A DNA stretch of 64,000 nt. It comes from Promethearchaeota archaeon. GTDB taxonomy: Archaea > Asgardarchaeota > Heimdallarchaeia > Hodarchaeales > Hodarchaeaceae. Positions 4,601 through 24,773 of the stretch are shown in pieces. The stretch is taken from the NCBI GenBank assembly GCA_048938105.1, contig JBHLMN010000008.1, positions 1 to 64,000 of the forward strand, in the 5' to 3' direction. The translations under genes and the position numbers were made by a program. The notes beneath the pieces are model-generated. The model saw nothing but the letters and a program-made list of their open reading frames with translations. It was not told where the DNA came from and did no database searches. Positions within the stretch are counted from its first letter, which is position 1. The number at the start of each line of letters is the position of its first letter.

Positions 4601-5624
4601 GAATGACTGGACAAGTCCCGATGATGATATAGATGGTTTTGTTGATGATCCCTATGATATAGACGGGGGGAATAACCAAGATTTCTTTCCTGTGGCAACT
4701 GAGGTGCCACTGGTAAAAATTATCTCACCTATTGCGCAATTTTACGACATAGATACAGTTTCCGTTATTCTTTCGGGTAATGCATACCATTACATATACT
4801 ACATAGAAGGAGTAGATAGTTCGAATCAAACATGGAGCTCCAGTTCAAGTCGAACACTCGATGACGGCAGCTACATCCTCCATGTATATGGAAGTGATCC
4901 ATTAGATAAGTATACGATCTATGAATCAGTCTCCTTTACGATTGACACGATTCTTCCGAGTATTGATATCAGTAGTCCAATAATGAAAACGTACACGCAA
5001 AAAAGTATAACACTAAGCTATACTGTCTCTGACGCGACAGACACTCATGCCACTATCTATATTAATGATGTTGCCAACACAACAACTATCCCCAGTGGAA
5101 TCACCTCCCACTTCCCAAATGGGGATTATAATATTACTATCATTATTGTGGATCAAGCTGGAAATATCGGAACAGCCAATGTTATTTTTACTGTTGATGC
5201 TGAACCTCCCACCATCAGTATTGATTCTCCAGTCAAGACAACCTATACTACTGGGAGTATCATGATAACCCTCTCAGGAGATGATGTCGTCAACTATTGG
5301 TACTATATTGTGGGGGTTGATAGCGTAAATCAGACGTGGGCCTCCGCAATAACACGGAGTTTACCGAATGGTACGTATACCCTTCATGCCTATGGGAATG
5401 ATTCTGCGGGAAATGAAGTCCACGAGAGTGTCATTTTTGTTGTTGAAATCCCTCCTATGACCACTAGTCTCACTTCAACTGGTCCAACTACAACTCCTCC
5501 GACCACCACGACAGGTGAGACAAAATCAGAGGATGACCTCGGTAATATAATTGGCATGGGGGCTATTGTGATTGCTGTTTTCGCCGTACTTGGCGGTTTC
5601 TACTTCCTCAAGAAGAAACGCTGA
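1638..5624 (+). CDS. Large surface adhesin: signal peptide, two beta-helix modules with two inserted C-type lectin domains and a LamG domain, three Ig-like domains, TM anchor
   Basis: CTLD motifs AC..LGGHLVTI / WIGLTD / WND / YICEW twice; LamG motifs LSFDG..DY, FTIEFWV, WQHFA, DDLRF; SD-like ggag before the ATG; C-terminal TM. Confidence 0.9.
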   Translation: MKAGKIAIILILLIVLVQTQGFLQGSYPSRNVYEGRRQKIETNSHEPLIYSESNLGLPSASIKETVEYVEQNPLEILNDSAFGPSGYNFTGTGTVNDPYLISGYNITSSSGPLIHVANTTKYFRISNNLLKITHGGTFYKGSEYKLYPTNVTYPTAMAACTALGGHLVTISDWKENTFVTNLAQDAWYIWIGLTDEVTEGTFKWITGEPFVFYNWLKPNPNDSGDAGQDHVVLYGGLAGSYDYGVFYSDATGGWNDVHFNYSYYYICEWEFASIDNSIWVNNVTNGEILENIFTNAKNGVHLENTNNISIVNNMISNHSSHAIVANQSNFNNYSNNIIYNGFNGIIMDNSSQNTLSKNSISVSEIGITFKSSTLNNLSENTISDCISGFYLESSNSTNIVRNTFYDCLKTSIDLQSSTENVIAWNNFFLGRRTVIFNGHKYLYFIDERKYWKEAKTACEPLGGHLVTITHQNEYDFVFDLLGGGAIWLGLTDEKVEGTFEWITGEYVTFADPLLADGSGDYILMWTGWAPLTWNDVDNEATQVNPPGVRYPYICEWDFIDYVIDIGSGNNTYQYNYWESWEGPDDDSNGIHDIPYRLSNHGLSFDGTNDYAELSNYILEKNFTIEFWVNIIDTTSFQCIICKETSAGSWIFLLMISQGSLVIYDRDSSVFLDLITSGWQHFAIIIEEGSSTFNYHLYRNGVAFISGSMDLLIGYNPTDKPWTIGQEWDWPETSDHLKGAYDDLRFVNRSLTSVEIYEDYTSPDNNYPARTGTVAWYQLNETSGTSIQDSSGHGNHGTTYNGAGWKQAVDSFPRITPIWIDDNNDFPNFSSSGDGTLNKPYKIENHYFVSNHTNLIEIHNTTAYFVIQNSFFDSLEGSYDAIYLKNVTNGWIQNNELTNGYYGIQVELSESILIERNFIFNGVVGMTIQLSVSNHIKCNMIYNNIDYGIKIDTSSENNIVEWNIILNNNQTGHQAYDKGIANVFRYNYWNDWTSPDDDIDGFVDDPYDIDGGNNQDFFPVATEVPLVKIISPIAQFYDIDTVSVILSGNAYHYIYYIEGVDSSNQTWSSSSSRTLDDGSYILHVYGSDPLDKYTIYESVSFTIDTILPSIDISSPIMKTYTQKSITLSYTVSDATDTHATIYINDVANTTTIPSGITSHFPNGDYNITIIIVDQAGNIGTANVIFTVDAEPPTISIDSPVKTTYTTGSIMITLSGDDVVNYWYYIVGVDSVNQTWASAITRSLPNGTYTLHAYGNDSAGNEVHESVIFVVEIPPMTTSLTSTGPTTTPPTTTTGETKSEDDLGNIIGMGAIVIAVFAVLGGFYFLKKKR
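5214..5424 (+). repeat. Second copy of the block at 1001..1214
   Basis: Direct comparison of the two sequences. Confidence 0.9.
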
Positions 5625-5891
5625 GGCCCGTTTGACACTTCTGATGTTCCTGAAGTTCCTGAAGAATAAAGGATATTTTCCCCTTTTCCCACTCTTCATT
5701 CTTTTTTTTTTAATAATAAATTGATTAATGAAAATTCCAATAAAATTAGAGAGCAAATTCCTTAAAATGAGATGAACTTCAAAGTGCAATACAACATCAG
5801 TAAAGCTAAAGATAACTAAATTATTTTAGAAATTAACCCAAGGTCCTTCATAAATCAAATCCTTAGTTATTTAGGAAAAAATCAATTATAA

Positions 5892-8690
5892 CTAATTTTC
5901 CTCCTTTTCTTCAGGATTATCTCCCTTATCTTCCACATCTTCAGTAGTGATTTCTTTTTTGATTTCTTTTTGTTCCTTAGTTATTTTAGCTGCTTCCTTT
6001 GCGGTAAAGGCCTCTTCTAAGCTTGCTAATTCACGTTTTTGACCTTTCTTATTACCTGTTATCTTATAAATTTCTAAAGCAGCTAAATTATGTTTAATTG
6101 CATTCTTATAATCTTTTTTATTTAAATAACAACGTCCAATTTCTCCTAGTTGACGTGCTTCTTCTGCTTTATCATTTGCCTTCCGTGCTTCCTTAAGTGC
6201 CCGTTTATGTTCTTTGATTGGTTCTGGAAGCATTAATCGTTTAGTACCAAAATAACTTAATGCTCCAATACCACAAATCCCACCTAATGCGAGAATTAAT
6301 CCCAACCACAAATAATCTTCTTCTGGGGCTGCTGGGGTATAAGTCGGAGGGGTATAGGGTGGAGCTGTCCAGGGAATCTGAGTGGTATTTATAGCTCCTG
6401 TAACAGCTCTGGTAATTACACGCACAGTAACTGAATTCTTGACTGTATTCTCATAAGGATCAATAGCTTCGAAAGTGAAAAGATAAGTTCCAATCCCTAG
6501 GTTATCAACAGGATAATCGACTGGTACACCTGGATAGAAGGTTCCAGTTGTTACTTTGAGAGAATCTCGATAAATATTATAGGTACCAGGTTCAACAGAT
6601 AAGACTGTCCAGTTTAAAATATGACCGAGAGTATCTACTTCAAATTCAATATAATCCTCTGTATTACAAGTTACCGATATTGCAGTTGCTTCTAGAACCC
6701 AAACATATACAAGATCAGTTATTGCATTCCCAGTAGTATCGTGTGCGATCAAAGTATAATTATATACTCCTAAATATTGCCCTCCTACATTGACATTTAT
6801 TAATGCTGACGCATTCCATTCCCCCTTAGCAATTGGTGTACCATTTTGATAAACAGTATAAGAACTTGGGTCATCATCAGAGATAAGCCAACTAAGTGTA
6901 TGACTCTTAGGGGAACCATACTGATAATAGAAATTCTCCTCTGGTTCTATTACAAATATAGGAGTTTGATTTCCTATTATAGTTATTACTACAGTGTCAG
7001 TGATGTTACGGCCGCTCGTTTCTGTAAAAACTATGAAATACTCATATTCCCCAATACTCAGATTTGTAGTAGAGATCTCGACGACTAAGTTGAAAAATTG
7101 ATAAATCTCATCCCAGGTGGAAGTATTACTATAAATCTGGTTATTTCGATAGATAGTATAATTAGAAGGAAATGAATCCAAAATTGACCATTCAATAGTC
7201 TCAGATTTTCCCTCTACGACTGCCAAATCGGACGGACGGATAAAAGATTTTAATCCAAGCAATTGTCCATTAATTCTATTGTTCAAATAGGTAATACCAG
7301 GGCTAGATTCGTCGATGAATGCCCAAACGCTTGTATCAATGATACTATTGGCTTCTAGTCTTGAATCACTGGAATCAAGAAGTACAATTCCAAATCCAGA
7401 AATGTCTTTGATCTCGGTCACTTCAGCACCAGATCCCCCTAAGTTTGATGATAAACTATTTTCTGATAAACTTGAGATATCTATTAAGATATTTCCAATC
7501 AGATCAGTTGAAGTTGATGTTTTAACTTGAATTCCATGAGCAGCCTCATAAAAGGAGGATATTTCCGAAATAGTGTTGTTTCTTATTTCCGAATTATCAG
7601 AATTACTGATAGAAATACCTGTTGTGTTGGAATAGACTGATTCAACATTCGAGATGCTATTTAAAGAGATATTTCCACTTGGACAGTTATCTAGAGAAAT
7701 TGCATTAACATCATCGAAGAATGATGGAGATATAAGGTTAGAGAGTTGATTATCAATTATCGATACAAGAGGAGAGTGCGCTACTTTAATTCCTGTTAGT
7801 TTGGAACTTCCACTTATTGAATCAATTATTATGTTGGAAGTGACTAATGATGTACAATTGTTTGCAGAGATTGCAGAGGATTCAGATGTACTTGACGATA
7901 AAGATGTGATATTAGTATCTGAGATAGTAAAAAAATCACAATTATCTAAGAATATGCCCCAAGATGATCTTGAAGTAACATTTGCAACATTAGAAGCATT
8001 TATCGCAAGTGACTGAGCATTAACACCATAAATACCATAGGATGCAGCAGTAGATGTGATATTATTTAATGTAACGTTTTGAATGATGATATTATTACTG
8101 GCTTCAAGAATAAGGCCAAATGCATGGTAAGCTGTGAGGAAACCAGAGTAAGTAGAGTGGAGTCCATCTATTGTGCTATTTATGACGGAAGTATCACTGG
8201 AATCAGTAATGTTAATTCCAGCAACAGAAGAAGTGCTAGTACCAATATTCTGAATGAAGCAATTGTTGATTAAGGAATTAGGACAATTTTCCAATGTTAT
8301 TACTGTGTTTACAGTATTATTAACAGTTAAATCCTGAATTAGCACATTTTGAAGTGTTACATTTTGACTATCAATGATTATTAAGGGATCAGTAATTAGT
8401 CCCTCAATAACCAAATCATCACTGTTTGTTATTGTAACTTGGATATTTTTGACTGAATATGATTGAACAAACGATTGTAAAAAGCCCATGGAGTTAATCG
8501 TAACACCTGGTTCATGAGCTTGAAGAATTATTCGGAGCAGCTGGTCTTCATGTTCAAAGAAAGCTGATACTTTCTTCCCATTTATTGTCAGAATTACTTC
8601 ATTCTCTTGGTTGTGTTTGAAAAGGAGACCAGAAGATGAAAAAATAAGGAGAAGAACTCCAAATATAAGAATATAGCGTGAAAGTCTCAT
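5892..8690 (-). CDS. Membrane protein: right-handed beta-helix, Ig-like repeats, Pro/Thr linker, TM helix, cytoplasmic TPR-like tail
   Basis: N-terminal hydrophobic segment; IxNxxIxN repeats; TM YLWLGLILALGGICGIGALSYFG; EARQLGEIGRCY...AIKHNLAALEIY TPR pattern; gaggtga SD upstream. Confidence 0.85.
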   Translation of the reverse strand: MRLSRYILIFGVLLLIFSSSGLLFKHNQENEVILTINGKKVSAFFEHEDQLLRIILQAHEPGVTINSMGFLQSFVQSYSVKNIQVTITNSDDLVIEGLITDPLIIIDSQNVTLQNVLIQDLTVNNTVNTVITLENCPNSLINNCFIQNIGTSTSSVAGINITDSSDTSVINSTIDGLHSTYSGFLTAYHAFGLILEASNNIIIQNVTLNNITSTAASYGIYGVNAQSLAINASNVANVTSRSSWGIFLDNCDFFTISDTNITSLSSSTSESSAISANNCTSLVTSNIIIDSISGSSKLTGIKVAHSPLVSIIDNQLSNLISPSFFDDVNAISLDNCPSGNISLNSISNVESVYSNTTGISISNSDNSEIRNNTISEISSFYEAAHGIQVKTSTSTDLIGNILIDISSLSENSLSSNLGGSGAEVTEIKDISGFGIVLLDSSDSRLEANSIIDTSVWAFIDESSPGITYLNNRINGQLLGLKSFIRPSDLAVVEGKSETIEWSILDSFPSNYTIYRNNQIYSNTSTWDEIYQFFNLVVEISTTNLSIGEYEYFIVFTETSGRNITDTVVITIIGNQTPIFVIEPEENFYYQYGSPKSHTLSWLISDDDPSSYTVYQNGTPIAKGEWNASALINVNVGGQYLGVYNYTLIAHDTTGNAITDLVYVWVLEATAISVTCNTEDYIEFEVDTLGHILNWTVLSVEPGTYNIYRDSLKVTTGTFYPGVPVDYPVDNLGIGTYLFTFEAIDPYENTVKNSVTVRVITRAVTGAINTTQIPWTAPPYTPPTYTPAAPEEDYLWLGLILALGGICGIGALSYFGTKRLMLPEPIKEHKRALKEARKANDKAEEARQLGEIGRCYLNKKDYKNAIKHNLAALEIYKITGNKKGQKRELASLEEAFTAKEAAKITKEQKEIKKEITTEDVEDKGDNPEEKEEN

Positions 8691-8694
8691 CGAA

Positions 8695-11600
8695 TCACCT
8701 CTTAAAGAAATCTAGGCCTCCTTTTCTTCTAATTAAGAAAGCTGCAATTCCAATAGCACTGACTAATGTCAATGCTCCAGCAGCAATTAATATAACTGCA
8801 CCTAGATCCACCTCAGGTTTCTCTGCGGGTGTTACAGAGAATATTATTGTATTCATCAAGGATTTATTTTCAAAGACTATGTCTGGTGTTGCAGGGTAGG
8901 AATAGTTGAATGCTAAACCAACAACTTGCAGTTCATACTTTCCTTCTTCAAAGGTTAGAGCTTTGTGTGTCCATCGTGAAAAACCTTTGTAGGTCATTGT
9001 ATAATTATCAGACCAGCCAATAGATTCTGTTTCATTTGATTCAGTAGCATTTTTAATTTCTTGGTAACGGAACTGAACATTTTCTAAAGCTGTTAAATTA
9101 AACATTTCAATGTTAATGGGTCCAGCATTGTAAGTTCCCCTGTGCTCTGGTGATTTAAACTGGAGCGGAGAGGTCAATCGATTAACTTCAGCTAAAAATT
9201 CCTCGGGGGAAGTGAATACTAGGGGATCTGTCCCAATCCATAGCTCTAATGAATCACTATAGCCATCATAATCAGTATCGGCATTATAAGGTTGAGTACC
9301 ATATATTAACACCTCTTCTCCGTCCATTAATCCATCGAAATCAGAATCTGGATTACGGTAATCTAGAAAACCTCCATCCATCTTATAGGAGTTATAGATA
9401 AAATATTCGGCCCCATCACTCAAGAGATCATGGTCAAAATCACGCTCATATCCGTCAGGAATGCCATTATTATTTACATCAGGGTTATATGGATCGTAAA
9501 GCGGATCACCATCTATTGCATCGACCTCTAAGCCATCAGGCCATCCATCATCGTCACTATCTGGGTCAAAGGCACTAGTCGCGTACTGGGGATTATATGT
9601 ACTGATTCTAGCTCCCCAACCAGAAGTTGTTTCTTTGCCTAATGCGGTTGTCTCGTTACAATCTAATATCCCATCACCATCCGTATCTCGTTTTGTTGGA
9701 TCTGTTTTATGATATTGAATTTCATCATAATCTGAAATAGTGTCATTATCACTATCAGGAAGATCTGGTCTGAGATGGTTATCAATTTCATACTTATCCC
9801 CAAGTTTATCTCCATCCGTATCAGCTTTAACTGGGGACGATCGGAACGGAAGGACTACAACATAGCCAATAAATGGATGGATAAGAATTTCAATTGGATC
9901 AATGACTAATTCCCGGCCATCATTTATGCCGTCATTGTCTGTGTCGTTATTAATTGGATTCAAGAGAATATTTTCCTGAGAAATCGCAGAAAAATCTCCA
10001 TATCGTAGGTATAGTTCCCAAGAATCCATTAACGAATCATTATCACTATCCATTGAACAAGGATTGGTTCCATAGGTAAAGATCTCATCATAATCAGACA
10101 ATGAAAAAGTTGGGTTGCCTTGAGCATCTGGAAATAGTAGACTATCCCCATCAGAATCTTTGCTATTTGGGTTTGTTCGATAAATAAAAACTTCTTCTCC
10201 GTCTCGTAATCCATCTTGATCCGAGTCATAGTCCATTGGATCTGTGTCATAAGCTAATAATTCATCGCGATCCGTTATATCGTCGTTGTCAGAATCTTCA
10301 TCGACTGGATCAGTTCCATAAACATATATCTCTTCATAGTCCGTAATGCCGTCTATATCCGAATCAGAGCTATGGGGGTTGGAGTGACTGAAGAATAATT
10401 CCCAATAATCGTCTACACCGTCATAATCTGTATCGGGATATAATGGATCAGTGAAATAGCGGAACCATTCGTCTCCATCTAATATTAAGTCATCATCAGT
10501 ATCTGACTTACTAGGATTTGTCCCTAAGAATATTTCAATTCCATCTGGCAAGGAATCTCCATCTGTATCTGGATTAGCGTAATATGTTGTGAACTCGCGC
10601 TCCGGTTGAAGTGTTCCTTCTTTTCCATCTATTAAACCGTCATCATCAGTATCAGAATCTAGAGGATCACTTGCGGGATTCAAGCTTAGCTCATATCCAT
10701 CGGAGTTAAGAAAACGGCCTAGAACACGGGTACGAGATGTTGCAGCTGAATCACCGTCACTATCAGGATTACAAGGATTAGTTTGGAAAACTTTGGACAC
10801 TAATTCCCTAAAACCATCTGGATCAATTTCAACAACGGTTGCTGCAATACCTTGAACCTCAATACCGTCTCGCATATCGCGTAAGTACGTTCTTGTTACG
10901 CTTGTGCCAGCAATAGAACCATCCCAATATTGCGTAAAGGAATCATCATCCGTGTCATTGTCTAATGGGTGTGTATAACCACTTCCAAACACTAACATAG
11001 GTCTATCGGAACCATCAGGATAATTCTCACGATCACCATAATATGGGCCAAATTCTCCCTCTTGTCCATCCAGAAGAAGGTCGTTATCAGTGTCGGGATT
11101 TAAGGGATCTGTGCGGTCATTATAGATAGTATTACCTATTTGTATTTCAGTTACAGAAGGAGTTATTCCAGTCAAATTCCAGGCGTGGGTGATTTCATAA
11201 AAATCAGTGAGACCATCATTATCAGTATCCCGAGAGAATGGGTCTGTCCCATATTCTATTACTTCTTCGAAATCAGTCATACCATCAATATCTGTATCAG
11301 GGTGCCTTGGGTTCGTCTTCAATACCCATTCAACCATGTCAGATAGGCCATCTGCGTCTGTATCTGGCATATTTGGCTCGGTATTTGATACTTTCAATTC
11401 AAATTTATCAGAAAGACCATCTCCATCAGTATCACTATTATTGGGGTCACAAGAAGGTATTGTATTTTCTAGGTCATCTGATAGTCCATCATTATCTGTA
11501 TCAAGTCCTAATGCATTATCCTCAAGATCTTGAGATCCCCGTGAGGGAGACAAATCTAATGGAAAACCTGGTGGATTCCAGCTGAAACCCATGTCCCAAC

Positions 11601-14600
11601 CAAAGAATAAGAACTCCATAACTACATTTACCCATAATGTTATATTTAGAGTAATTACAAAGGGAGCTGAAACTCCAGGAGTTAGATCTTGGAAAAAGGT
11701 TAACTCAATGTCAATTCCAAATTCTACTCCTATTGCAACAATATATAGGTCTAGTTTGATCCCGACAGAGGCTCCTATGCCTAATATTAAGGTTAAAGCG
11801 CCTTGGGCAGGCTCTCCATTGTGAGCAGCCTTTTGTCCTATCTCGAATGCTATTGATAACCAGAGAGTCACTCCTAGCTTATCTAATCCAATATACTTAG
11901 CGACTTTATTTAACGGGCCACCTGCTGCTCCACCTGTTATAATATCAAAAAGGGTAAACTCCCTTGAAACCTTAATATAAATAGCCAATTTCCATTCTAA
12001 TAGTTTCATTGCTTCTTCAGCTGGGAAACCCCCTGCTTCGAATTTAAAGAGCTGAATAGAGAAGAATACCTCCCCAGAAACTTCTAATTCGAGACCAAGA
12101 GAAGAAAGGATGGCATCAAATAACCCACCTTTTCCAGTGGATGCCATTGTTGCTTCTAAACGCGCTGAAAATACAGGTGCAAATATAACGAATTCTATGA
12201 TCTTCTTGAAAAAAGCTCCGACATCTAACTCAAAATCGGTGAGTCCTTTGTAAATTATCTCCTCAATATATTCAACAAACTCATCATTCTTCCATTCAAC
12301 GCCAAGGCTAATTGAGAGTTCGAACTCGAGTTCTATACCGATGTAATCCGCTCCCGCGAATGGTATTTTTCCTCCAACAGTTAGAACAGCCATTTCTTCA
12401 ATTTTCTTAGCAAGTTTTTCTGTCATCTCACCCAGGAGTTCTGCAATATACTGGGATAGAGCAGCCTTAAATTCATTGATGATAAAATCAACGCCATCAG
12501 TAAATAAGCCTTTTATCTTGAATAGTATTCCTACTCCTGTTTCAGCAAGTTTAAGGGTTGATTGCGAGATTCCTGGGAAATTCTTTTCCAAAGAATCAAC
12601 AACTAAATATTTCAGATCCTCTTGTGTTTCTGTTTCATTGTAGACACTGTATCCTCCTAAAATATTTGGACCAACAAGAGCAGTGAATATATTCTGAATA
12701 ATACGCATCGCTACTGTTCCATCAACCCCTAAGTATGAATCAAAGAAAATCGTTCCAGCTTGCATGGCAAGAACCCGAAACATATTCAAAAGACTGTTTC
12801 CTTCTCCAGAAATTAAGGTTTGAGCGACAGTTAATAATAATTCTGCAAGAACATTGACTGCTGATTCAATGTTTGGACTATCAACAAAGAACTCAAGAAG
12901 GGTCACAATTGCTTTCTTTATCTTGTCAGCAAACTTAGCTTGCTTATCTGAATCTTGATTTTCGCCTGAAAGTCCACTGACATCATCTGTCAGAAGCATC
13001 TGAGCTGCTGTGCCGTCAGTAGTGATGGCAATGAATCCGAAAACCGAGTCGAGAATTGAAGAGATAATCTCTTGTTTATTCTCAGCAAGTGTGTCATTTT
13101 CTGTGGAAAAATCAATGAAATCTTTCATGACGGCCTTAAAATCACTTGCAACAGAGGTTGGAAGTGATGGAACCCAAATCCTGCCAAGGATCACAAACGC
13201 ATCTATTAACGCTTGGGATTCATCAGTTGTAGTATCTAGACCTATTCCTCTAAATTGAGTTTCAATTTCACTTCTAATTACGGCTTGGTCAGTCTCTGAA
13301 GAGATGGCAGCATCATTGAAAACCTTCTCTATATCAAAAGCTAATTCAGCTATCTCATTCTCACTAGTGGATTCCCCAAGAAATGTCATCGCGCTAGCAA
13401 TGAAGTCTTTAATTGTAATTATTGTCTTTTTTGACGTATAAAACGATAAAGTACCACATGAATCATTAAAATTATCGAATAATGTCAATCCTAAGCTATA
13501 AAATCGTCCAATCGCATCAAGAGCACTTTTCTCTTTTGCAGTCAACGTGGTATTATCATTGAATTTCATAAGAATATATTCGACGACATTCGGAATTCCT
13601 TGTAACAGTGCCTCAAGGTCTCCAAAAATAAAACCTTTAGCTAACGGTGTTAAAAATGACACGAGGTTTGTTGCTGTTTTTTTAGATTTATTTGTGAATC
13701 CTCCATATACTTCCTTAACCCAACTCCATGTAGACATATTCAAGACTTTTTCCGTGGCAAAGCTAACTATTTCGCTAATTGGTTCATCTACAAGTTCTAG
13801 TGTGGTTTTGTTGATTAATCTATCAGCTATTTCAACGCCATTCATTAGTGTGGCTTCAAGGATTTGTAATATTGATTGAATAGTCGTTGAGTTAACTGCA
13901 GTACTCGCAACAGAAAAGATGGCTGTTATGGTAGATTTTGCTAAATCTAATATATCATCAACATCTCCACGTAGTAAATATAAAGCATCTACCACAACAG
14001 GAATGAATGGTTTCATAATTTCGGGGATAGGTGCTATGGCCATAATAGATTCAAGTAATCCTTTAATTGTCTTTTTGACATCACCACCCCCCTCAGATGA
14101 GTCAGCTAGAAGCATTCCTAACTGTTTGATTGTATTAACTATATCTGTAGCCACTTCGGGATCTATACCAAGTTTATTTCCTCCTAGTTTGATTAATACA
14201 TTCAAGACAGTGTCAATGATATCAGCAGAGGCCCCTTCTAATCCACTAAACAACGGAATATCCGTAATCGTAAAATCATCTTGAACAGATTCAGTTTCCT
14301 TGGTATTATAGATTCGTAAGCTAGTTTGAGGTATGGGAGTTGTAGTGTCATTAAAACATCTTGTGGAATTATCAGGTAGTATTTGATATGCATCAGTCAT
14401 TTTAGCAAGTTTAGCATTCCAGTTCCGAAGGCGAGCTTCGTCATCATATTCACCGAGAGGATCTGGTATGTTTTCTGGGTCTATAACTCCATTTATCAAT
14501 CGGTTCATATTTCTACCAAAATATTCTATACCAAGGATTCTAAAGTCCTCAGCACATCTTTCATAGGCTATTCCATTTTCTTTTTTGTCAAGGATTTCTC

Positions 14601-15150
14601 CCACTTCCCAGAGATTAAAGAAGTAGGACTGTTCTGCACCGATAACTTGACTTCCTTCGATTCGGACATTCGTCTGTTCAACAGGAACTTCGTTACGTAA
14701 AAGATTAGTTGCCCCCGAACCGAATATATGGTAAGAAAATTGATTTTTAGATAGTGTGTCAGCAATTTTTTTCCAACTAACTATTTCTTCCCCAATGTTT
14801 ACTCCTTGAAGACTTCCATTAATAAAATATAATTTAATCCAATATTCTCTATCCATGATATTGTACTGTAAATGCTTCCAGTTTGTAACAGCGATAATGT
14901 AGGTATTAAGATAGACTAGGCTGACAGAAGTGAATGTATTAAACGCAGTAGAAGTTAAGAGGTCACAATTAGGGTCATAATATATTGCTATCTTTTTAGG
15001 AAGATCCCAACCCGAATATCCCTTCTCTGAAGGATCTATTCGATATAAATTATTGTTTAATGCAGTAACTTTTACAATATTAACTCCTAGAATTGCTAAG
15101 AATAGCATTGCAAAGCAGAAAGATCTTAATGACTTATAAGTGGGTTTCAC
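8695..15150 (-). CDS. Giant membrane-anchored surface protein: alpha/beta N-domain, long helical region, amphipathic beta-strand region, about 770 aa of Ca-binding DxDxDG (TSP3-like) repeats, Ig-like domain, TM
   Basis: 2151-aa ORF; GTG start overlaps the upstream stop (GTGA) with aggagg SD; dozens of P..DTDxDGLxDxxE repeats; TM followed by RRK. Confidence 0.9.
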   Translation of the reverse strand: MKPTYKSLRSFCFAMLFLAILGVNIVKVTALNNNLYRIDPSEKGYSGWDLPKKIAIYYDPNCDLLTSTAFNTFTSVSLVYLNTYIIAVTNWKHLQYNIMDREYWIKLYFINGSLQGVNIGEEIVSWKKIADTLSKNQFSYHIFGSGATNLLRNEVPVEQTNVRIEGSQVIGAEQSYFFNLWEVGEILDKKENGIAYERCAEDFRILGIEYFGRNMNRLINGVIDPENIPDPLGEYDDEARLRNWNAKLAKMTDAYQILPDNSTRCFNDTTTPIPQTSLRIYNTKETESVQDDFTITDIPLFSGLEGASADIIDTVLNVLIKLGGNKLGIDPEVATDIVNTIKQLGMLLADSSEGGGDVKKTIKGLLESIMAIAPIPEIMKPFIPVVVDALYLLRGDVDDILDLAKSTITAIFSVASTAVNSTTIQSILQILEATLMNGVEIADRLINKTTLELVDEPISEIVSFATEKVLNMSTWSWVKEVYGGFTNKSKKTATNLVSFLTPLAKGFIFGDLEALLQGIPNVVEYILMKFNDNTTLTAKEKSALDAIGRFYSLGLTLFDNFNDSCGTLSFYTSKKTIITIKDFIASAMTFLGESTSENEIAELAFDIEKVFNDAAISSETDQAVIRSEIETQFRGIGLDTTTDESQALIDAFVILGRIWVPSLPTSVASDFKAVMKDFIDFSTENDTLAENKQEIISSILDSVFGFIAITTDGTAAQMLLTDDVSGLSGENQDSDKQAKFADKIKKAIVTLLEFFVDSPNIESAVNVLAELLLTVAQTLISGEGNSLLNMFRVLAMQAGTIFFDSYLGVDGTVAMRIIQNIFTALVGPNILGGYSVYNETETQEDLKYLVVDSLEKNFPGISQSTLKLAETGVGILFKIKGLFTDGVDFIINEFKAALSQYIAELLGEMTEKLAKKIEEMAVLTVGGKIPFAGADYIGIELEFELSISLGVEWKNDEFVEYIEEIIYKGLTDFELDVGAFFKKIIEFVIFAPVFSARLEATMASTGKGGLFDAILSSLGLELEVSGEVFFSIQLFKFEAGGFPAEEAMKLLEWKLAIYIKVSREFTLFDIITGGAAGGPLNKVAKYIGLDKLGVTLWLSIAFEIGQKAAHNGEPAQGALTLILGIGASVGIKLDLYIVAIGVEFGIDIELTFFQDLTPGVSAPFVITLNITLWVNVVMEFLFFGWDMGFSWNPPGFPLDLSPSRGSQDLEDNALGLDTDNDGLSDDLENTIPSCDPNNSDTDGDGLSDKFELKVSNTEPNMPDTDADGLSDMVEWVLKTNPRHPDTDIDGMTDFEEVIEYGTDPFSRDTDNDGLTDFYEITHAWNLTGITPSVTEIQIGNTIYNDRTDPLNPDTDNDLLLDGQEGEFGPYYGDRENYPDGSDRPMLVFGSGYTHPLDNDTDDDSFTQYWDGSIAGTSVTRTYLRDMRDGIEVQGIAATVVEIDPDGFRELVSKVFQTNPCNPDSDGDSAATSRTRVLGRFLNSDGYELSLNPASDPLDSDTDDDGLIDGKEGTLQPEREFTTYYANPDTDGDSLPDGIEIFLGTNPSKSDTDDDLILDGDEWFRYFTDPLYPDTDYDGVDDYWELFFSHSNPHSSDSDIDGITDYEEIYVYGTDPVDEDSDNDDITDRDELLAYDTDPMDYDSDQDGLRDGEEVFIYRTNPNSKDSDGDSLLFPDAQGNPTFSLSDYDEIFTYGTNPCSMDSDNDSLMDSWELYLRYGDFSAISQENILLNPINNDTDNDGINDGRELVIDPIEILIHPFIGYVVVLPFRSSPVKADTDGDKLGDKYEIDNHLRPDLPDSDNDTISDYDEIQYHKTDPTKRDTDGDGILDCNETTALGKETTSGWGARISTYNPQYATSAFDPDSDDDGWPDGLEVDAIDGDPLYDPYNPDVNNNGIPDGYERDFDHDLLSDGAEYFIYNSYKMDGGFLDYRNPDSDFDGLMDGEEVLIYGTQPYNADTDYDGYSDSLELWIGTDPLVFTSPEEFLAEVNRLTSPLQFKSPEHRGTYNAGPINIEMFNLTALENVQFRYQEIKNATESNETESIGWSDNYTMTYKGFSRWTHKALTFEEGKYELQVVGLAFNYSYPATPDIVFENKSLMNTIIFSVTPAEKPEVDLGAVILIAAGALTLVSAIGIAAFLIRRKGGLDFFKR

Positions 15151-18100
15151 TTCTTAAACCTCCTTTTTTCATCGTTCCAAGTCCGCTTTCGTCGAATAAT
15201 TTCAATTGAAAATCCTGTAGCCATTACCACTCCCGTTGAGAATGAGAATATGGTAATTAGAAACAGATCTTCACCATTCTCTTCTTTGTAGATAGATGAG
15301 GACGACGAAAATGCCACACTATCATCGATTTCTATAGGACTTATTATTAAATCAGTGAATTCTGCAGCTGCTCCAACCGATATTGATCTTCCTTGGGGAT
15401 CAGCAATTGCAATTGTTCCATCTATTAATGTCGCAACCATGACAGGTTTACGTGATGTATCCACATTCCATATTTTCACTGAAGAAATGAGTGAACTGAA
15501 GGAATATATTTCATTTACATTATCATTAGAAAGATTTTTGACCACTAGAGCGTTCCCAGTGATCAAAATCAGCTCATTTTCTCCTTTACCATCTAGATTT
15601 GAGAATTGATGATCATAAGAGCCAAGGTAGTAATTAATTTCTTCTTTAATTAATGGAATTAAGAAAAGCTCTTCTTTATATATTTTAATACCATCATTAC
15701 GAGTTGTGAGTAATATATTAGTAGCTAATTCTTCTCTTACAATACTCCAGCTTATTACATCCATAATTGGCAAATTATATGTTTTTTTATCTAAATCCCC
15801 GTTTGGTAACCACGAATAGTGTATTAGTTGAGACTTGTTCGAGAGAAGGTATACTTCTGTTACTTGCTCCTCATTTTCAAGTGTTTTAACAAATAACCAG
15901 GTACCTCCAAGTGATGGTGCTGGAAACATTCCCCCAGTAACAGATGCTGTAGGTAAATCAATAATATGAGCATTCCCAAGATAATCGAGGGCTATAATAT
16001 GTGTTATAATACCTGGTAATGAAGGATTTAAAGAGGCAACATCCCAATAAGTCAAATAAGCTGAATTTGTGTAATTCCAAATAAATGCATTCGTTTGATA
16101 ATCATACAGAGAAAATATACTTTTACTACCAAGTATTGTCTGCATTAACAAAAGATCCGAGTTTAATCCTAGATTTACAGCAGATATGTTTTCAGCTTTC
16201 GTAATTTTCTCACTAACTATCTTTGTACTAGTTTTGTCTAATACAATAAGATTACCTGTATTTGTTTTATAAGCTAGCCCATAAGATTGTTTTATTTCGT
16301 CCAAAATGAGTCCTGTTGCGCTAATTCTCGAGAAAGGTTCAATTTGAACCCTCCAAAATTCTACCTGTAATGATCTTAAAATAAGCGTACCGTTTGTATA
16401 AGCAACTAAAAGTTTTTCTGTGTTATCAAGAGATACTTTTACAGGGATTACGTATGCTTCTCCGAAATTATAGATATTTGTTGCAGTTTTAAGAATGTAC
16501 GGAGTCTCTGTAATGATATTTACAGCAGAAGATAATTTTCCTATTACTTTCGACGAATCACAAGTCCCATTTGCATAACTAACCCAAAATGATATTTCTT
16601 CATCAAAACCCATTCCTACTGCTGCAGAATTATCATCACTAGGCATCCATGTCACATCTGATCCATCACGAGAGATTCCAAATATACCTGAATATTTACA
16701 TTGGGCAAACAATAGCGTTTTGTCTGTATTCGCGGTTTCGATCTCAAAGTTTATTAAAGGATTTTTAAAATATCTACTCCAAAGGATTGTACCCCCACTT
16801 GCAATATTTAAGGCAAATATACCACTTGAGAACCCTTTTGTTGGAATTAACGCACTAGATATTGTATCATTAAATTCAGGGATAGCTAAAATTAAGTCAT
16901 TCAAAGAGTCATTATTAACATCATATGGGATTATTTGCAGTAATTCGATATTTGTACCTTGTAAAATTGGCAAAGTATCATTTAATCTTATTTGCTTTGT
17001 TTCAGTATTCCAAACTTCAATCCTGCTTTTAGGATTTTTGTTGTTATAGTTATCAAGAATCACTAGTAAAATATCTAGTTGACCATCCAAATTGAAGTCA
17101 CCTAATATAGATCTCGAATTCGCATCAAACTTTACTAGTGAAGTGTGGTCAAATGAATTTAGCACTGATCCATTGTGATGAAGAACATTGATTTTTCTAT
17201 AGGTGGCAAAATCACTAGAGCTAACCCCAATATAAGTCTCATTCTTAAAAATACAAGAAGATATGTCGAAATATCCTAAGGATTGGTCATCTATCGAAGG
17301 ATTATTCCATATTTTATCTCCCTTTAAGGTTTGGATTGCCCTAACATCTGTTGTGGTAGCCAAAATAAGATCCTGAATAGCATCTTGGTTTACATCAACG
17401 AATATATGGCTATTTGTTGGGCTATTACTTTGTGCAGATATCCAGTAGCGTTTTGAACCATTCAGATTTAATCCTAAAACACCTTTTGACGAAATACACA
17501 CAATGACTTGATCAGAACCGTTGTTAATTAGATTAAAATCATCTAATTTACCTTGAATACTTCTATGCCAAATCAAATTATTGGTCATTAAGTCCCACGC
17601 AATTAATCCCCTACCATAAGTGCGATCAGCGATTACGAGGTCTAAATTGGTGTCATTGTTACAATCAACCAAATAATTCTCTGAAATATTTGGAGGTAAT
17701 GAATAGTACAGGTCAGTTCCAGGGTTTCCAAATGTACGTGAATTTTCCCAGTCATCGCCGCTATCTGTGTCATGTAAGTTTAGACGTCTTATGGTTTGAT
17801 TATTCGCCGTTAAATCGTACCCTTGGATTTGAGCAGCGAATCCCCATGAAACTTCATCGACTATCGTTCCGCTATGCTCTAGAGTTAAAGTATCACCAAC
17901 TGTGCTAAGAGTAAAGTCTGATTTTTCTATATCTGGTGTTATAGAATACAAGGAATTAATTGTAGCACTATTCTTAGCTATAACGAAATAGCCTTTAGCT
18001 GAGATATTTCTAGAGACAAGAGGAGGTAATGTAAATGAATAACTGCTGGTAGAAATTTTCCAACCAGAAAGATCAACAGCTGAAGATGTAGGATTGTAAA

Positions 18101-21100
18101 GTTCAATCCAAATTGCTTCTGGATCAGCAGGATTATACATCACTTCTGTGATTAGAATGTCGGTACTAACTGGAAATTCCACTGTTATATTTTCATCTCT
18201 CTCTGTAATTAAGTAGATATCATTAATTGGTTGTTCTTGATTTTTCAATTCAAAAGAAAATACATCACCCCCAAGAACAGTGAATATTAATTCTGGCCAA
18301 CCATTTCCATTGGTATCAGCGATTGCTACAGAGCCTGTTTCCCTTTTAATATCTGTATCAGATACAAGATATTGCACATACGAACTATTTACCTGTTCAG
18401 GACTAGCTGAAAGAAATGAGGGAGGTTCATATTGCCATTTCTGAGTATAATAGTATTCTCCAGCCAATTCATCTTGAGAGATTTCTAATAATGAAACACG
18501 TGTGTCATGGGAAATGAACAATTCTGTTCTCAAATCATTATCAGAATCACCAACTGCTATTGCTCGTACATTTGATATGTCATCATAGTCAAACCAGATA
18601 CCATTTACCAATTGGCCTATCCACTGTTGAGTTACCAGATGATGCGGAGCTCCATAGTAATCTACTAAATTCCCAAAATATTTGAGATCTGAGCCTTCAG
18701 GCAACAAGAATCTCGTTACAAATTGATAATAAATACCTCCAGTATTATCTGTAGTTACTCGGGGTCTGATAATTTGACGATTAATTACAGGTACCTGCGA
18801 CTCCTTCGTTCTTAAGGATCCATAAATATCATATTGCTCTAAATTGGGATCATCACTAAACAAGACATATTCTTGAGACCAACTGTCACCACTATCCTTA
18901 CTAAATGAAAGAATTAACTCAGATTTACCACCACTCACATGTTCACAACATAGAAAGATATTATTGGGATTATCAAGCATTTTTGTTACAGATACATAAT
19001 CATAATCTTCTGTACCTGAAATTACTGAAACAATACCTTGATTTTGATAAGTACTGTTCAGTATAGTGTAATAAATTTGCTTAGAAGCAAAAGAGTTCCT
19101 TGGAGAACCTGAAAAGAATAATCCAATTTGATTATTTATTACTACAAAATCAATCGAAGAAACAGTATAATTCTCATTAATTCCTAATTGATCTGTAAGG
19201 TTTGTCTTAGTCCAGTCTGTAGTATTAATGTATTGTACATAAAGATTCTTAGAAATACTAGTGGTTGTCTCGATGTCATTAGCAATATAAGCGACAAGAA
19301 TGTCTCCATTGATCTCAACAACTGCAACATCTTCATAAACAACTGTATAATACAATTCAAACGTGGAACCATTAGTATTCATTATTGAATCAACTTCAAA
19401 ATTAGTTGTAAGAGGAGTTCCCGTGGAAGTAAATTGTCTTATATTCACACTTCTGCCATAAATACTCTGAGAACCATCACTAGGTGATACATATTCTACA
19501 ATCCAAGCAACTGTAATGGTACCTGATTTACCTTGTGTAATAGCTGGCCGATATTCATACATTGATGGTGCTGCAGAATAATTTCCTTGTCCAGGTTGGC
19601 CAGAAGGTAAAACATTAAGCCAATCTGATGGTAAATTAGTATCTCTTGGGATAATACTTCCTATATAACCCACAGAATCATTTCTGACCAGAGAAGTACC
19701 ACTCGCAATTAAATTCCAATATGAACCACCGCCCCATTCAATAAGATCTTCAATTTCATTGTCATTGTTAATTAATTGTAATTGGCCATCATCACCTAAG
19801 TTTAAAGAAGAATTTTCTAAGTTCGGACTAGGAGCGCTCGGATATTGAGAAGTAAATTCTATTTCATCATTTACAATGACAAAATAATCATAGGCATAGA
19901 TAGTTCCATTTAATGGAACAGAAAAAGAACTAGTTTCATTGGCAAAATCTAATCTCCATCCATCTAATGAGATATTGTGACAACTTGGATTATATAATTC
20001 TACCCACTGTTGAGAAGCAACCACAGGGTAATAGACTTCTGTTATGAGAATGATAAGAGATTCGCTTATTTGGTACTCTGGATCTTTGAATATGCCTGAA
20101 GTAGTTGGGTCTTGAGATATTGTATAATAAAGCTTTCCGCCTCCCGTTGTGCCGTTCTGTAAAATACCACCGATATCTTGATGTAATACAGGATCATGAG
20201 TATTTTCTTCAACTCCATAAATTGAAAAATACTCATTTCCTCCCTGAAGATGAAAGATGTCTTGACTACGAGGAGCGAGACCAGTAGGAGATTGATAGGT
20301 ATCAAAAACTGGCGAAACCTGCTGTGATTGACCATAATTTGGATCTGATGAAATATAGCTAAGTAATGTGAATTGGAAGATATCTGGGTCATTATTAGCC
20401 TCCCAAATATCCAATCCATGGCCATGAGCAATAATTAATTCAATAAATCCATCATAGTCAGCGTCCGTTGTCTCTAGTGCATTTACAATCGTTGATATTG
20501 CAGGAAAATCGAAAATTTTGTGAATATCCCCATAATTTGAATCCAATGCTAGTAGAAAACCTTCTTCACTTGTTTCACTCGAATTTTGACCACCAATCCA
20601 TAATTCGATATTTTCGTCTTGATTAAGATCAGCAAAGAGCAAGGTTCGAATATCTAAAAACGGATAATCAGTGGGAACACCTGGTACTCCGTAAAAACCT
20701 GAACCAGATACTGATTGAAAACTTTCTACAAAACAATGTTGGGGATCTGCCCGTAACAAACATAGATAATTCTTTGCTGCAATAGCGACCATAGAACCCC
20801 TTCCATCAAAATCAGGAGTTATAGCTAGCGCTGTAAACTGTGTAATAGAAGTATCATTAATTATGTATTGATAATCTTTTTCAAAAATTAATTTGTATTC
20901 ATCATTGTAGCCAGTAGCTTCAAATATGTATATACTCAACGCTGCTGTTATGATAAACTCTTCATTTCCATCTTTATCGTAATCTAAACCACTAGCTAAT
21001 AAATTACCATGATCATAGAGAGTTTTCCTAAAATCTCCTGATACTCCCTCTAAATCTTGGAAAGCATATGGGGAATAAGTTGTTTCTTCCGTATGGTTTA

Positions 21101-24773: not shown

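What the first reader, a model, noticed from the sequence alone, without database searches (positions are those of the whole stretch)
5892..24773. 19-kb translationally coupled operon of three giant membrane-anchored proteins: candidate adhesion and signalling apparatus
Seen: genes of 3208, 2151 and 932 aa joined by a GTGA overlap (15147-15150) and a 4-nt gap (8691-8694), each junction with an SD. All three have an N-terminal export signal and a C-terminal TM. They combine FG-GAP Ca-binding propellers (the repeat family of integrin alpha heads), an animal-like C-type lectin, lamin-tail domains, a TSP3-like Ca stalk, an unassigned helical/beta-sheet head, and a beta-helix with a cytoplasmic TPR. 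A longin-like gene lies just upstream on the same strand. Inference: a stoichiometric multi-subunit cell-contact complex with an intracellular output in an Asgard archaeon. I know of no described system with this composition.
Basis: partly seen in the sequence, partly recalled or inferred. Interest (0 to 1): 0.85.

Follow-up and report, generated by a model that had tools for sequence, protein, structure and literature searches.

The report
Heimdall-lineage copy of Asgard giant surface-protein operon
Three tightly coupled giant genes in a Heimdallarchaeia (Asgard) genome encode membrane-anchored, calcium-repeat surface proteins; two of them are a diverged second copy of a gene pair that stays adjacent, and is sometimes fused, across Asgard lineages, so they are undescribed but untested candidates for the cell-contact molecules of eukaryotes' closest relatives.

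Summary
Genes of 3208 (A), 2151 (B) and 932 aa (C) lie on the minus strand. They are joined by a GTGA overlap and a 4-nt gap, each with an SD-like site. Pfam confirms FG-GAP, C-type lectin, two LTDs, TSP3 repeats and a beta-helix.

A and B are not a one-off. B's head matches 98 of 399 genomes of the phylum. In about 20 loci that I examined an A-type gene abuts it. In one genome the two are fused, with a two-TM hairpin. The window cassette is a Heimdallarchaeia paralogue with the gene order swapped and lectin/LTD insertions. The older B'-A'-C' cassette lies on another contig of this genome.

C is lineage-specific. Its cytoplasmic TPR-like tail falls below the Pfam cut-off but is conserved in the five same-genus orthologues compared. 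In four relatives a 650-965-aa cytoplasmic TPR protein (D) follows C; D was not found in this genome.

Physical complex formation, adhesion and signalling remain inferences. I obtained no expression data, and the complex prediction gave no answer.

This scan has already reported the B'/A' pair on other DNA (e1-546922, e1-2678428, e1-4831972). I found no paper describing it. The cassette is not an aloposon and not an integrin.

The parts
15147..24773 (-). Gene A, 3208 aa: a multi-propeller surface giant. It has an N-terminal hydrophobic segment, an FG-GAP propeller, a C-type lectin, a second FG-GAP region, LTD, an unassigned region with one Asp-box-like motif, LTD, a further propeller, about 500 unassigned aa, a TM and a basic tail.
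   Evidence: orthologues
24847..24856 (-). TTTTATAATA, a candidate archaeal TATA box 74-83 nt upstream of A's ATG. Read by eye and not tested.
   Evidence: sequence reading only
23439..24551 (-). A aa about 75-445: first FG-GAP beta-propeller. It is the part best conserved with the A' paralogues (41% identity to own A').
23037..23372 (-). A aa 468-579: canonical C-type lectin domain with EPS...WND at the Ca/sugar site. It is reported only in the genus-g1 A orthologues and is absent from the Pfam list of the L031 A-type gene.
20397..21893 (-). A aa 961-1459: second FG-GAP-type propeller region, conserved with A' (38% identity).
19731..20051 (-). A aa 1575-1681: lamin-tail domain 1.
17841..18167 (-). 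A aa 2203-2311: lamin-tail domain 2.
16854..17621 (-). A aa 2385-2640: PQQ/FG-GAP-like propeller.
15210..15266 (-). A aa 3170-3188: C-terminal TM helix, followed by the tail RRKRTWNDEKRRFKK.
15147..15163 (-). A/B junction: GGAGG (15159-15163), 8-nt spacer, GTG start of B, and the GTGA overlap with A's stop.
   Evidence: the same 4-nt overlap occurs in orthologous loci
8695..15150 (-). Gene B, 2151 aa: signal peptide, family-specific head (alpha/beta domain, helical region, amphipathic beta domain), about 26 TSP3-type Ca repeats, a membrane-proximal domain, TM and a short basic tail.
14503..15003 (-). B aa about 50-216: flavodoxin-like three-layer alpha/beta domain (PurE-like or CHAT-like shape, Z about 10).
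12391..14253 (-). B aa about 300-920: roughly 600 aa of amphipathic helices. This is the most divergent part of the head.
11611..12390 (-). B aa 921-1180: nine long beta strands with strict one-face hydrophobicity. This is the best-conserved part of the head.
9211..11583 (-). B aa about 1190-1980: TSP3-type calcium-binding repeat stalk (30 DxDxD motifs, 17% Asp).
8728..8814 (-). B aa 2113-2141: C-terminal TM helix.
8691..8701 (-). B/C junction: GAGGTGA (an SD-like site that includes B's TGA stop) and the 4-nt gap before C's ATG.
5892..8690 (-). Gene C, 932 aa: signal peptide, right-handed beta-helix, three Ig-like repeats, Pro-rich linker, TM and a 118-aa cytoplasmic tail.
7266..7844 (-). C aa 283-475: Beta_helix/NosD match.
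6396..7253 (-). C aa about 480-765: Ig-like repeats shared with many other 1200-1750-aa proteins of this genome.
6249..6314 (-). C aa 793-814: TM helix.
6021..6233 (-). C aa about 820-890: conserved cytoplasmic TPR-like motif (about 1.5-2 repeats).
5876..5881 (-). T6 run 11 nt after C's stop codon: an oligo-T, archaeal-type termination signal (by reading). The next gene is convergent.
   Evidence: (sequence)

Best explanation
The region is one operon for three single-pass, probably N-glycosylated, calcium-binding cell-surface proteins that work as a unit.

A (multi-propeller giant) and B (TSP3-stalk giant with a family-specific head) are a Heimdallarchaeia-specific paralogue of an Asgard B'/A' gene pair. 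That pair is always adjacent and occasionally fused. I infer that A and B sit side by side in the membrane as a heteromeric surface assembly. In this assembly B holds an amphipathic alpha/beta head at the far end of a Ca2+-stiffened stalk. A contributes propellers, a glycan-binding C-type lectin and LTD modules.

The most likely role is contact with partner cells, matrix or surfaces, as part of the non-crystalline coat seen on Asgard cells.

C is a lineage-specific accessory subunit (beta-helix plus Ig repeats). In relatives, its conserved cytoplasmic TPR-like tail probably docks a large cytoplasmic TPR protein (D), which would give the unit a link to the cell interior.

Shown: gene structure, coupling, domain content, synteny, fusion and paralogy. 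Predicted from sequence: topology. Inferred: physical association, Ca dependence, glycan or cell binding, and the C-D link.
For: Coupling:
- The overlap, the gap and the SD-like sites are present.
- The 4-nt A/B overlap recurs in the orthologous loci L028, L029, L056, L057 and L062.

Surface location:
- N-terminal hydrophobic segments and C-terminal TMs with basic tails.
- N-x-S/T sequon density of 1.2-2.5 per 100 aa, against 0-0.4 in four cytoplasmic enzymes and regulators of the window.
- K+R content of 6-7%, against 11-14% in those proteins.

Linkage of A and B:
- B's head matches 98 of 399 genomes and 39 of 85 genera of the phylum.
- In 12 of 12 distant loci, including Ca. Lokiarchaeum ossiferum NEF87_004127, an A'-type gene abuts B'.
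- The same adjacency holds in the Heimdall-lineage loci.
- In G346 the two are one ORF of more than 4456 aa. It keeps B's TM, a 70-aa Lys-rich loop and A's N-terminal hydrophobic segment. That hairpin leaves both ectodomains outside.

Paralogy:
- This genome's contig C14 carries B'(2213 aa)-A'(3057 aa)-C'(958 aa).
- A quick ML tree splits the B clade from the B' sequences with SH-aLRT 100.
- In G072 both cassettes lie in one run, B'-A'-C'-A-B-C-D.

Lectin: it is a canonical CTLD. The best single-domain PDB matches include surfactant proteins A and D, CD23 and DC-SIGN at E about 1e-13 to 1e-9, and the WND motif is present.

C tail and D:
- The motif is conserved in 5 of 5 genus-g1 orthologues.
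- D follows C in four of them. D is a TPR_12-type protein with no N-terminal hydrophobic signal segment, scored at E 1.5e-91 in L028.
- The G060 C tail aligns to D's C-terminal TPR units at 36% identity.

Context: cultured Asgard cells lack a regular S-layer (L. ossiferum) and carry unidentified 'complex surface proteins'. They also adhere while crawling (PMC9834061, PMC13716822).
Against: - I have no expression or protein data for this or any orthologue.
- Adjacency and fusion show joint function, not a stable complex.
- The family is patchy: about 25% of genomes in the phylum, 0 of 135 in family f20, and only 11 of 20 genomes in the window's own genus. It is therefore dispensable.
- An earlier check in this scan noted that MK-D1 lacks the pair yet still contacts partners (e1-546922; I did not test this).
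- 'Surface' rests on hydropathy, sequon density and domain types only.
- The tails of A and B are too short to signal.
- D was not found in this genome, so the cytoplasmic link, if real, is incomplete here.
- The TPR assignment for C's tail is below Pfam's cut-off.
- Beta-helix, lectin and the one Asp-box-like motif in A would equally fit glycan capture or degradation.
Confidence: 0.55

Rival explanations
1. The three proteins are co-regulated but independent envelope components. They would be parts of a loose glycoprotein coat (an S-layer substitute) that are transcribed together for economy and form no specific A-B-C complex.
For: - The window and genome are full of similar giant surface proteins that share modules: Ig repeats in more than 15 proteins, lectin copies at 2034-3413, and beta-helix and SBBP/TSP3 proteins.
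- The third gene is interchangeable: C, C' (PPC repeats), or C-like genes with a Lys-rich tail.
- The complex prediction gave no answer, so nothing supports binding directly.
Against: - A-B adjacency persists across deep Asgard divergence at only 22-27% identity in the B head.
- Close spacing is conserved: 4-nt overlaps in the A-B cassettes, and abutting or overlapping genes in the distant loci.
- There is an in-frame fusion with matching membrane topology.
- When the cassette duplicated, both genes were duplicated and kept together.
This pattern is typical of subunits of one assembly, not of mere co-regulation.
Confidence: 0.22
2. The operon is an extracellular glycan-capture or glycan-degradation apparatus for feeding. 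The lectin and propellers would bind polysaccharide and C's beta-helix would act as a lyase or hydrolase, all held at the cell surface.
For: - Beta_helix/NosD-type right-handed beta-helices are the fold of many polysaccharide lyases and hydrolases (family knowledge).
- C matches them.
- A contains a CTLD and one Asp-box-like motif, SKDSGDSW.
- Neighbouring genes include another lectin/LamG/beta-helix protein and a solute-binding protein.
Against: - No catalytic family (glycoside hydrolase, polysaccharide lyase or sialidase) is matched at any threshold.
- The lectin and C are recent additions to an older B'/A' core that has neither.
- The conserved cytoplasmic tail of C and the TPR partner D are not explained by a feeding role.
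Confidence: 0.1
3. B's distal head is a lipid-handling or membrane-inserting device, either a large-lipid-transfer-protein-like cavity or a beta-barrel-like inserter. The A-B unit would tether and act on a partner cell's membrane.
For: - Nine long strands each have one strongly apolar face: family-averaged Kyte-Doolittle +2.2 to +3.7 in eight of them (+1.2 in the shortest), against -0.6 to -1.9 on the other face.
- This is the best-conserved part of the head.
- Foldseek on the whole head lists MTP, lipovitellin and vitellogenin first, at E 1e-3 to 2e-2.
- The isolated domain (pLDDT 79.5) resembles only membrane beta-barrels, at Z up to 11.6.
Against: - All the matches are weak: TM about 0.1 for the lipid-transfer proteins, and rmsd 4-7 A with TM 0.5 or less for the barrels.
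- Interspersed amphipathic helices could simply bury the apolar face as an ordinary core.
- An earlier check in this scan reported no oily cavity in the homologous head (e1-546922; not re-tested here because I could not inspect coordinates).
- There is no sequence relative in the PDB or the ESM Atlas.
Confidence: 0.08
4. The giant genes are cargo of a mobile element of the aloposon type (tandem giants Otus and Ephialtes) described in Heimdallarchaeum genomes.
For: Tandem giant genes in a Heimdallarchaeia genome, and the aloposons were described in that group (PMC8813620).
Against: - Aloposons are defined by proteins of 3000-6000 aa, a tRNA integration site downstream, and four conserved upstream genes including a MinD/ParA ATPase.
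- No tRNA is present in the window or in seven related loci.
- The neighbours are PAS-domain and acetyl-CoA metabolism genes.
- The pair is vertically distributed across the phylum.
- GC content is unremarkable.
Confidence: 0.02

Closest known systems
Asgard B'/A' giant pair (for example Ca. Lokiarchaeum ossiferum NEF87_004127 / UYP47842.1 and its downstream neighbour). Annotated 'hypothetical', uncharacterised, and noted so far only by this scan.
   Same: - B architecture is the same end to end: alpha/beta domain, helical region, amphipathic beta domain, TSP3 stalk and TM. B is 34% identical to the window genome's own B'.
- A shares the N-terminal and second FG-GAP propellers (38-41% identity).
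- Tight coupling and both ectodomains outside the cell.
   Different: - The gene order is swapped (A then B).
- A has gained a C-terminal TM, a C-type lectin and two LTDs.
- The third gene is a beta-helix/Ig/TPR-tail protein instead of a PPC-repeat protein.
- The B clade sits on a long branch.
Integrin alpha/beta heterodimers (metazoa and other eukaryotes)
   Same: Two single-pass type-I subunits, FG-GAP Ca-binding propeller repeats in one of them, and short cytoplasmic tails. It is a plausible analogue as a two-subunit contact receptor.
   Different: - The partner B has no betaI/vWA domain, hybrid domain or EGF repeats.
- A has several propellers and no thigh or calf legs recognised by Pfam.
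- No talin- or kindlin-type tail motifs.
- FG-GAP repeats are widespread in prokaryotes (PMC3192720, PMC8023676).
Giant Ca2+-dependent repeat adhesins of bacteria (RTX-type LapA and MpIBP class; from my own knowledge)
   Same: A very long, Ca-stiffened repeat stalk presents ligand-binding modules (lectin-like, propeller) far from the cell.
   Different: Those are single polypeptides exported by a type I secretion system and retained in an outer membrane. Here there are two or three C-terminally TM-anchored proteins in a single-membrane archaeon, with TSP3 rather than RTX or BIg repeats.
Aloposon giants Otus and Ephialtes (Wu et al. 2022, PMC8813620)
   Same: Tandem giant genes in Heimdallarchaeum-group genomes.
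   Different: No tRNA site, no ParA-type upstream module, different sizes, chromosomal context, and a phylum-wide vertical distribution.
'Badge' protein LOKIASV2_13140 of Nerearchaeum marumarumayae (preprint 10.1101/2025.07.22.663070)
   Same: A very large predicted surface protein of an Asgard archaeon with large beta-sheet domains and a novel predicted fold.
   Different: No partner, stalk or operon is described for it.

Membership tests
Asgard B'/A' coupled giant pair (as defined by this scan; unpublished) | B-type protein of about 2000-2300 aa with the head (alpha/beta, helical, beta) followed by a TSP3 stalk and a C-terminal TM | tested here: met
   Full-length alignment to own B' (E 1e-227, 34% identity) and to 12 distant B' proteins. 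The profile search returned 147 clusters at E 0.001 or better, all that were traced being Asgard.
Asgard B'/A' coupled giant pair (as defined by this scan; unpublished) | An FG-GAP multi-propeller giant encoded immediately adjacent, with coupled spacing | tested here: met
   GTGA overlap in the window. A is 38-41% identical to own A' over residues 64-416 and 961-1459.
Asgard B'/A' coupled giant pair (as defined by this scan; unpublished) | Canonical gene order, B then A | tested here: not met
   The window, L028, L029, G072, G060, G056 and G053 have A then B. L031 keeps B then A. The cassette is therefore a derived variant of the family.
Integrin alpha/beta | FG-GAP beta-propeller in the alpha-like subunit | tested here: met
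   FG-GAP and FG-GAP_3 score above their cut-offs (39.9 and 45.1 bits).
Integrin alpha/beta | Beta subunit with a betaI (vWA-like) domain, plus hybrid, PSI and EGF modules | tested here: not met
   Pfam on B and C finds only TSP3_bac and Beta_helix. B's head has no PDB relative by sequence.
Integrin alpha/beta | Alpha-subunit thigh and calf legs and a conserved membrane-proximal tail motif | tested here: not met
   No Integrin_alpha2 or calf match at E 0.05 or better. The tail is RRKRTWNDEKRRFKK.
Bacterial TSP3 repeat (PF18884) | Tandem Asp-rich DxDxDG-type Ca-binding repeats above the Pfam cut-off | tested here: met
   82 bits against a cut-off of 25. There are 30 DxDxD motifs with about 23-aa spacing. 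Calcium binding itself was not tested.
C-type lectin domain (PF00059) | CTLD sequence profile and the Ca/sugar-site motifs (EPN or QPD, and WND) | tested here: met
   51.8 bits against a cut-off of 22.6. The best single-domain PDB matches are animal CTLDs at E 3e-13. WND is present, and EPS replaces EPN, so sugar specificity is unknown.
Aloposon (Wu et al. 2022) | tRNA integration site downstream of the giant genes | tested here: not met
   No tRNA in the window or in seven related loci.
Aloposon (Wu et al. 2022) | Four conserved upstream genes including a MinD/ParA ATPase | tested here: not met
   The upstream genes are a 145-aa roadblock/longin-like lead, a PAS protein, an AAA_26-DRTGG protein and an ADP-forming acyl-CoA synthetase.
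Aloposon (Wu et al. 2022) | Homology to Otus or Ephialtes | not testable with these tools
Large lipid transfer proteins (MTP, vitellogenin, apoB) | Helical domain plus open amphipathic beta sheets enclosing a lipid cavity | tested here: inconclusive
   Foldseek E 9.7e-4 to 2e-2 but TM about 0.1 on a model with pLDDT 62.6. No sequence match.
Transmembrane beta-barrels (autotransporter, Omp85, TonB-dependent receptor type) | Closed barrel of amphipathic strands in an outer membrane | tested here: inconclusive
   Z 8-11.6 over 160-225 residues at rmsd 3.4-8.5 A and Atlas TM 0.5 or less. Closure of the sheet could not be inspected. Asgard cells imaged so far have a single membrane (PMC9834061).
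TPR (cytoplasmic tail of C) | TPR profile above the Pfam cut-off | tested here: not met
   TPR_12 scores 19.9 bits against a cut-off of 30.1. The motif is conserved in 5 of 5 orthologues and one tail aligns to D's TPR units, so it is TPR-like but sub-threshold.

The most novel reading that the evidence does not exclude
The A-B(-C-D) cassette is a Heimdallarchaeia-specific elaboration of an ancestral Asgard contact machine. A's lectin and propellers would recognise a partner cell's glycans. B's stalk-borne amphipathic head would engage or extract lipid from the partner's membrane. C's TPR tail together with D would couple the event to the cytoplasm or cytoskeleton. That would be a prokaryotic, non-homologous analogue of an adhesion-receptor complex, in the lineage nearest to eukaryotes.
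Probability: 0.08. Interest if true: 0.92.

Novelty: new variant of a known kind. Interest (0 to 1): 0.6.

Why it matters
Cultured Asgard archaea show unidentified 'complex surface proteins' on their cell envelope, and L. ossiferum lacks an ordered S-layer (PMC9834061). They attach to syntrophic partners through their protrusions (10.1101/2025.02.26.640444) and crawl while adhering to surfaces (PMC13716822). None of the molecules responsible has been identified.

A gene pair that is kept adjacent across much of the phylum, is fused in some genomes, and is duplicated and decorated with a canonical C-type lectin and a cytoplasmic TPR link in Heimdallarchaeia gives concrete candidates. These can be tested in existing cultures by proteomics, antibody labelling and cryo-ET.

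The head of B also has no relative among solved structures or in the large ESM Atlas clusters. Even the conservative reading therefore adds a new protein family of unknown fold and function. The limits are equally clear: everything functional is inference, and the family is patchy rather than universal.

Tried and rejected
- **Complex prediction.** I sent B's alpha/beta domain, B's beta domain and A's first propeller, each with an alignment. The verdict was 'no answer' (score 0.00), which is uninformative.
- **Expression data.** I therefore have no co-transcription data and did not use read laying.
- **ESM Atlas feature search with B's head**. The best score was 0.82, which is noise level.
- **Sequence searches against the PDB.** Three unassigned regions of A gave nothing. 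The B head profile gave only designed helical repeats.
- **Aloposon reading.** Rejected on its defining features.
- **Conserved Promethearchaeota S-layer protein.** The Hodarchaeales preprint describes homotetramers with a central pore. I considered this unlikely for proteins of 2151-3208 aa, but the identity of those proteins is not in the main text, so I did not test it.
- **'Badge' protein kinship.** No sequence was available.
- **D orthologue in this genome.** An HMM built from four D proteins found only generic TPR proteins, 82 bits or less. D is therefore 'not found with this query'.
- **Literature.** Searches for a description of the pair found none. NEF87_004127 is not mentioned in any held paper.

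Full report
**Observation**

- A: 15147-24773(-), 3208 aa.
- B: 8695-15150(-), 2151 aa, GTG start.
- C: 5892-8690(-), 932 aa.

The A/B junction reads GGAGG, then 8 nt, then GTGA, so B's start overlaps A's stop. The B/C junction reads GAGGTGA, then ttcg, then ATG. A T6 run follows C's stop by 11 nt, and the next gene is convergent. A TTTTATAATA lies 74-83 nt upstream of A. These last two are readings by eye, not tests.

Hydropathy gives N-terminal hydrophobic segments and one C-terminal TM with a basic tail in each protein; A's N-terminal segment was read by eye because it falls below the scan threshold. N-x-S/T sequons are 3 to 10 times denser than in four cytoplasmic proteins of the window, and K+R content is about half. 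Both fit an extracellular, glycosylated location.

Pfam confirms FG-GAP repeats, a C-type lectin, two lamin-tail domains and a further propeller in A, TSP3 repeats in B, and a beta-helix in C. The lectin is a canonical CTLD. Its best single-domain matches by sequence among solved structures are animal collectins, CD23 and DC-SIGN. It keeps WND but has EPS in place of EPN.

Two items are weaker:
- C's 'TPR' tail is below the Pfam cut-off (19.9 against 30.1 bits).
- The 'longin-like' upstream gene has no meaningful Pfam match. It has only language-model neighbours named Roadblock/LAMTOR2 or carrying Fuz_longin_1. It is 293 nt away from A and is not syntenic in relatives.

**What the genes belong to**

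B's head (residues 30-1180) has only 17 relatives in the word-indexed search. The named ones are MAGs labelled Heimdallarchaeota, Hodarchaeales, Odinarchaeota or Hermodarchaeota. It has 147 clusters among 1.84 billion representatives.

A six-frame search of 399 genomes of the phylum finds it in 98 genomes and 39 of 85 genera. Typical open frames are 2050-2260 aa. The distribution is patchy: 11 of 20 genomes in the window's genus and 0 of 135 in family f20.

I fetched 12 distant loci. In every one a B'-type gene is followed, abutting or overlapping, by an A'-type FG-GAP giant. One of these is Ca. Lokiarchaeum ossiferum B-35 (NEF87_004127, 'hypothetical protein').

In G346 the two are a single ORF of more than 4456 aa. 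The junction keeps B's TM (2100-2124), a 70-residue Lys-rich loop and A's N-terminal hydrophobic segment (2195-2224). That hairpin leaves both ectodomains outside the cell. Three more genomes have open frames of 4700-4900 aa at the match.

**Paralogy**

The window's own genome has a second cassette on contig C14: B' (2213 aa), A' (3057 aa, no C-terminal TM) and C' (958 aa, PPC repeats plus TM), again tightly coupled.

A quick ML tree of 26 heads separates a B clade (14 sequences, all from the 17 named or unnamed relatives) from the B' sequences. The branch has SH-aLRT 100 and length 1.5. The B' copies from the window's class whose families also carry the B type group together among the other B'. 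The tree is midpoint-rooted and the careful search did not finish.

In the same-genus genome G072 the two cassettes lie in one co-directional run, B'-A'-C'-A-B-C-D. G067, a single 4.9-Mb contig of the same genus, also has both about 25 kb apart. It matches the closed Heimdallarchaeota record CP070695 in length and coordinates.

The A-then-B order with a third gene downstream is also found in family f6 (G056, G053), with 4-nt overlaps. Locus L031 keeps B-then-A. The lectin and LTD modules are reported only in the genus-g1 A orthologues and are absent from the Pfam list of the L031 A-type gene.

**The third and fourth genes**

C has orthologues (29-31% identity) in four genus-g1 loci. Their cytoplasmic tails share a TPR-like motif that looks better conserved than the ectodomain.

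In those four loci, C is followed by D, a 650-965-aa protein. D has no N-terminal hydrophobic signal segment. The L028 copy is made of TPR_12-type repeats (E 1.5e-91). The G060 C tail aligns with D's C-terminal TPRs at 36% identity.

The third genes of family f6 and of L031 have Lys-rich tails and no D. So the TPR tail and D co-occur, except in the window, where D is not adjacent and was not found elsewhere in the genome.

**B's head**

With 16 sequences the 1151-residue head folds at pLDDT 62.6. It has three parts:
- A confident flavodoxin-like alpha/beta domain (Z about 10 to PurE and a CHAT domain).
- About 600 aa of helices.
- A beta region.

Refolded alone with 40 sequences, the beta region reaches pLDDT 79.5. 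It has nine long strands, each with one strongly apolar face. Its nearest shapes in the PDB and the ESM Atlas are outer-membrane beta-barrels, but only at Z 11.6 or less, rmsd 4-7 A, and TM 0.5 or less.

The whole-head Foldseek list is led by MTP, lipovitellin and vitellogenin at E about 1e-3, but with TM about 0.1. I treat both resemblances as leads only.

**Interpretation**

Conserved adjacency across deep divergence, coupled spacing, joint duplication and an in-frame fusion with consistent topology make it likely that A and B act as one membrane-anchored unit. The modules (Ca-repeat stalk, propellers, lectin, Ig, beta-helix) are those of contact or binding proteins.

Cultured Asgard cells carry unidentified complex surface proteins, attach to partners and crawl by adhesion (PMC9834061, 10.1101/2025.02.26.640444, PMC13716822). 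The adhesion or contact reading is therefore the most economical one, but it is inference.

The rivals are independent coat proteins, glycan capture or degradation, and a lipid or membrane-active head. They are set out with their tests in the rival explanations. The aloposon reading fails on its defining features. Integrin membership fails on the beta-subunit and leg features.

**Prior knowledge**

I found no paper describing the pair.

This scan has reported the B'/A' pair before on other genomes (e1-546922, e1-2678428, e1-4831972, and others). The B'-A'-C' cassette of this same genome is noted as e1-5540306.

A later check of e1-546922 warned that the pair is not pan-Asgard and lacks expression evidence. 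My own count (25% of genomes) agrees.

What is new here:
- The Heimdall-lineage paralogous cassette with swapped gene order.
- The lectin and LTD insertions.
- The conserved TPR tail of C.
- The associated cytoplasmic TPR protein D.

Noticed in passing
window 1638-5624 (+): A convergent 1328-aa surface protein with two C-type lectin domains, a LamG-type domain, NosD/beta-helix and a Big_13 domain. Its lectins are 39-51% identical to A's lectin, so the lectin module is shared among unrelated scaffolds in this genome.
   Followed up: partly
window 25067-25504 (-): A 145-aa protein with no meaningful Pfam match. Its nearest ESM-Atlas clusters are Promethearchaeota proteins, one named Roadblock/LAMTOR2 (0.93) and one with Fuz_longin_1 on 34% of members (0.92). 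It is not part of the operon: the gap to A is 293 nt and it is not syntenic in relatives.
   Followed up: partly
window 35037-38060 (+): A 1007-aa protein with SBBP propeller repeats and a TSP3-type repeat. It also matches B's stalk. It is another member of the window's surface-protein island.
   Followed up: no
L058-L060 (G072:C4:126001-186000): Seven giant genes lie in one co-directional run of roughly 50 kb: B'-A'-C'-A-B-C-D. In the window's genome the run is split between contigs C14 and C49.
   Followed up: yes
L050 (G346:C38:156001-176000), minus strand: A B'-A' fusion ORF of more than 4456 aa with a two-TM hairpin at the junction. Open frames of 4700-4900 aa in G363, G345 and G355 suggest the same fusion.
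   Followed up: partly
proteins P0097, P0122, P0125, P0129, P0130, P0134, P0137: The N-terminal alpha/beta domain of B (profile positions about 20-200) recurs alone at the N-terminus of other proteins of 1500-2000 aa. It is therefore a separable module.
   Followed up: no
own genome contigs C53, C27, C42, C6, C61: At least 15 proteins of 1200-1750 aa carry tandem copies of the Ig-like repeat found in C (residues 480-765). This is a large paralogous family of surface proteins.
   Followed up: no
L025:7136-7216 (G000:C14): The start of A' is ambiguous. One ATG lies 2 nt after B's stop. A second ATG lies 18 nt further on, with a GGAGG before it. I used the second.
   Followed up: partly
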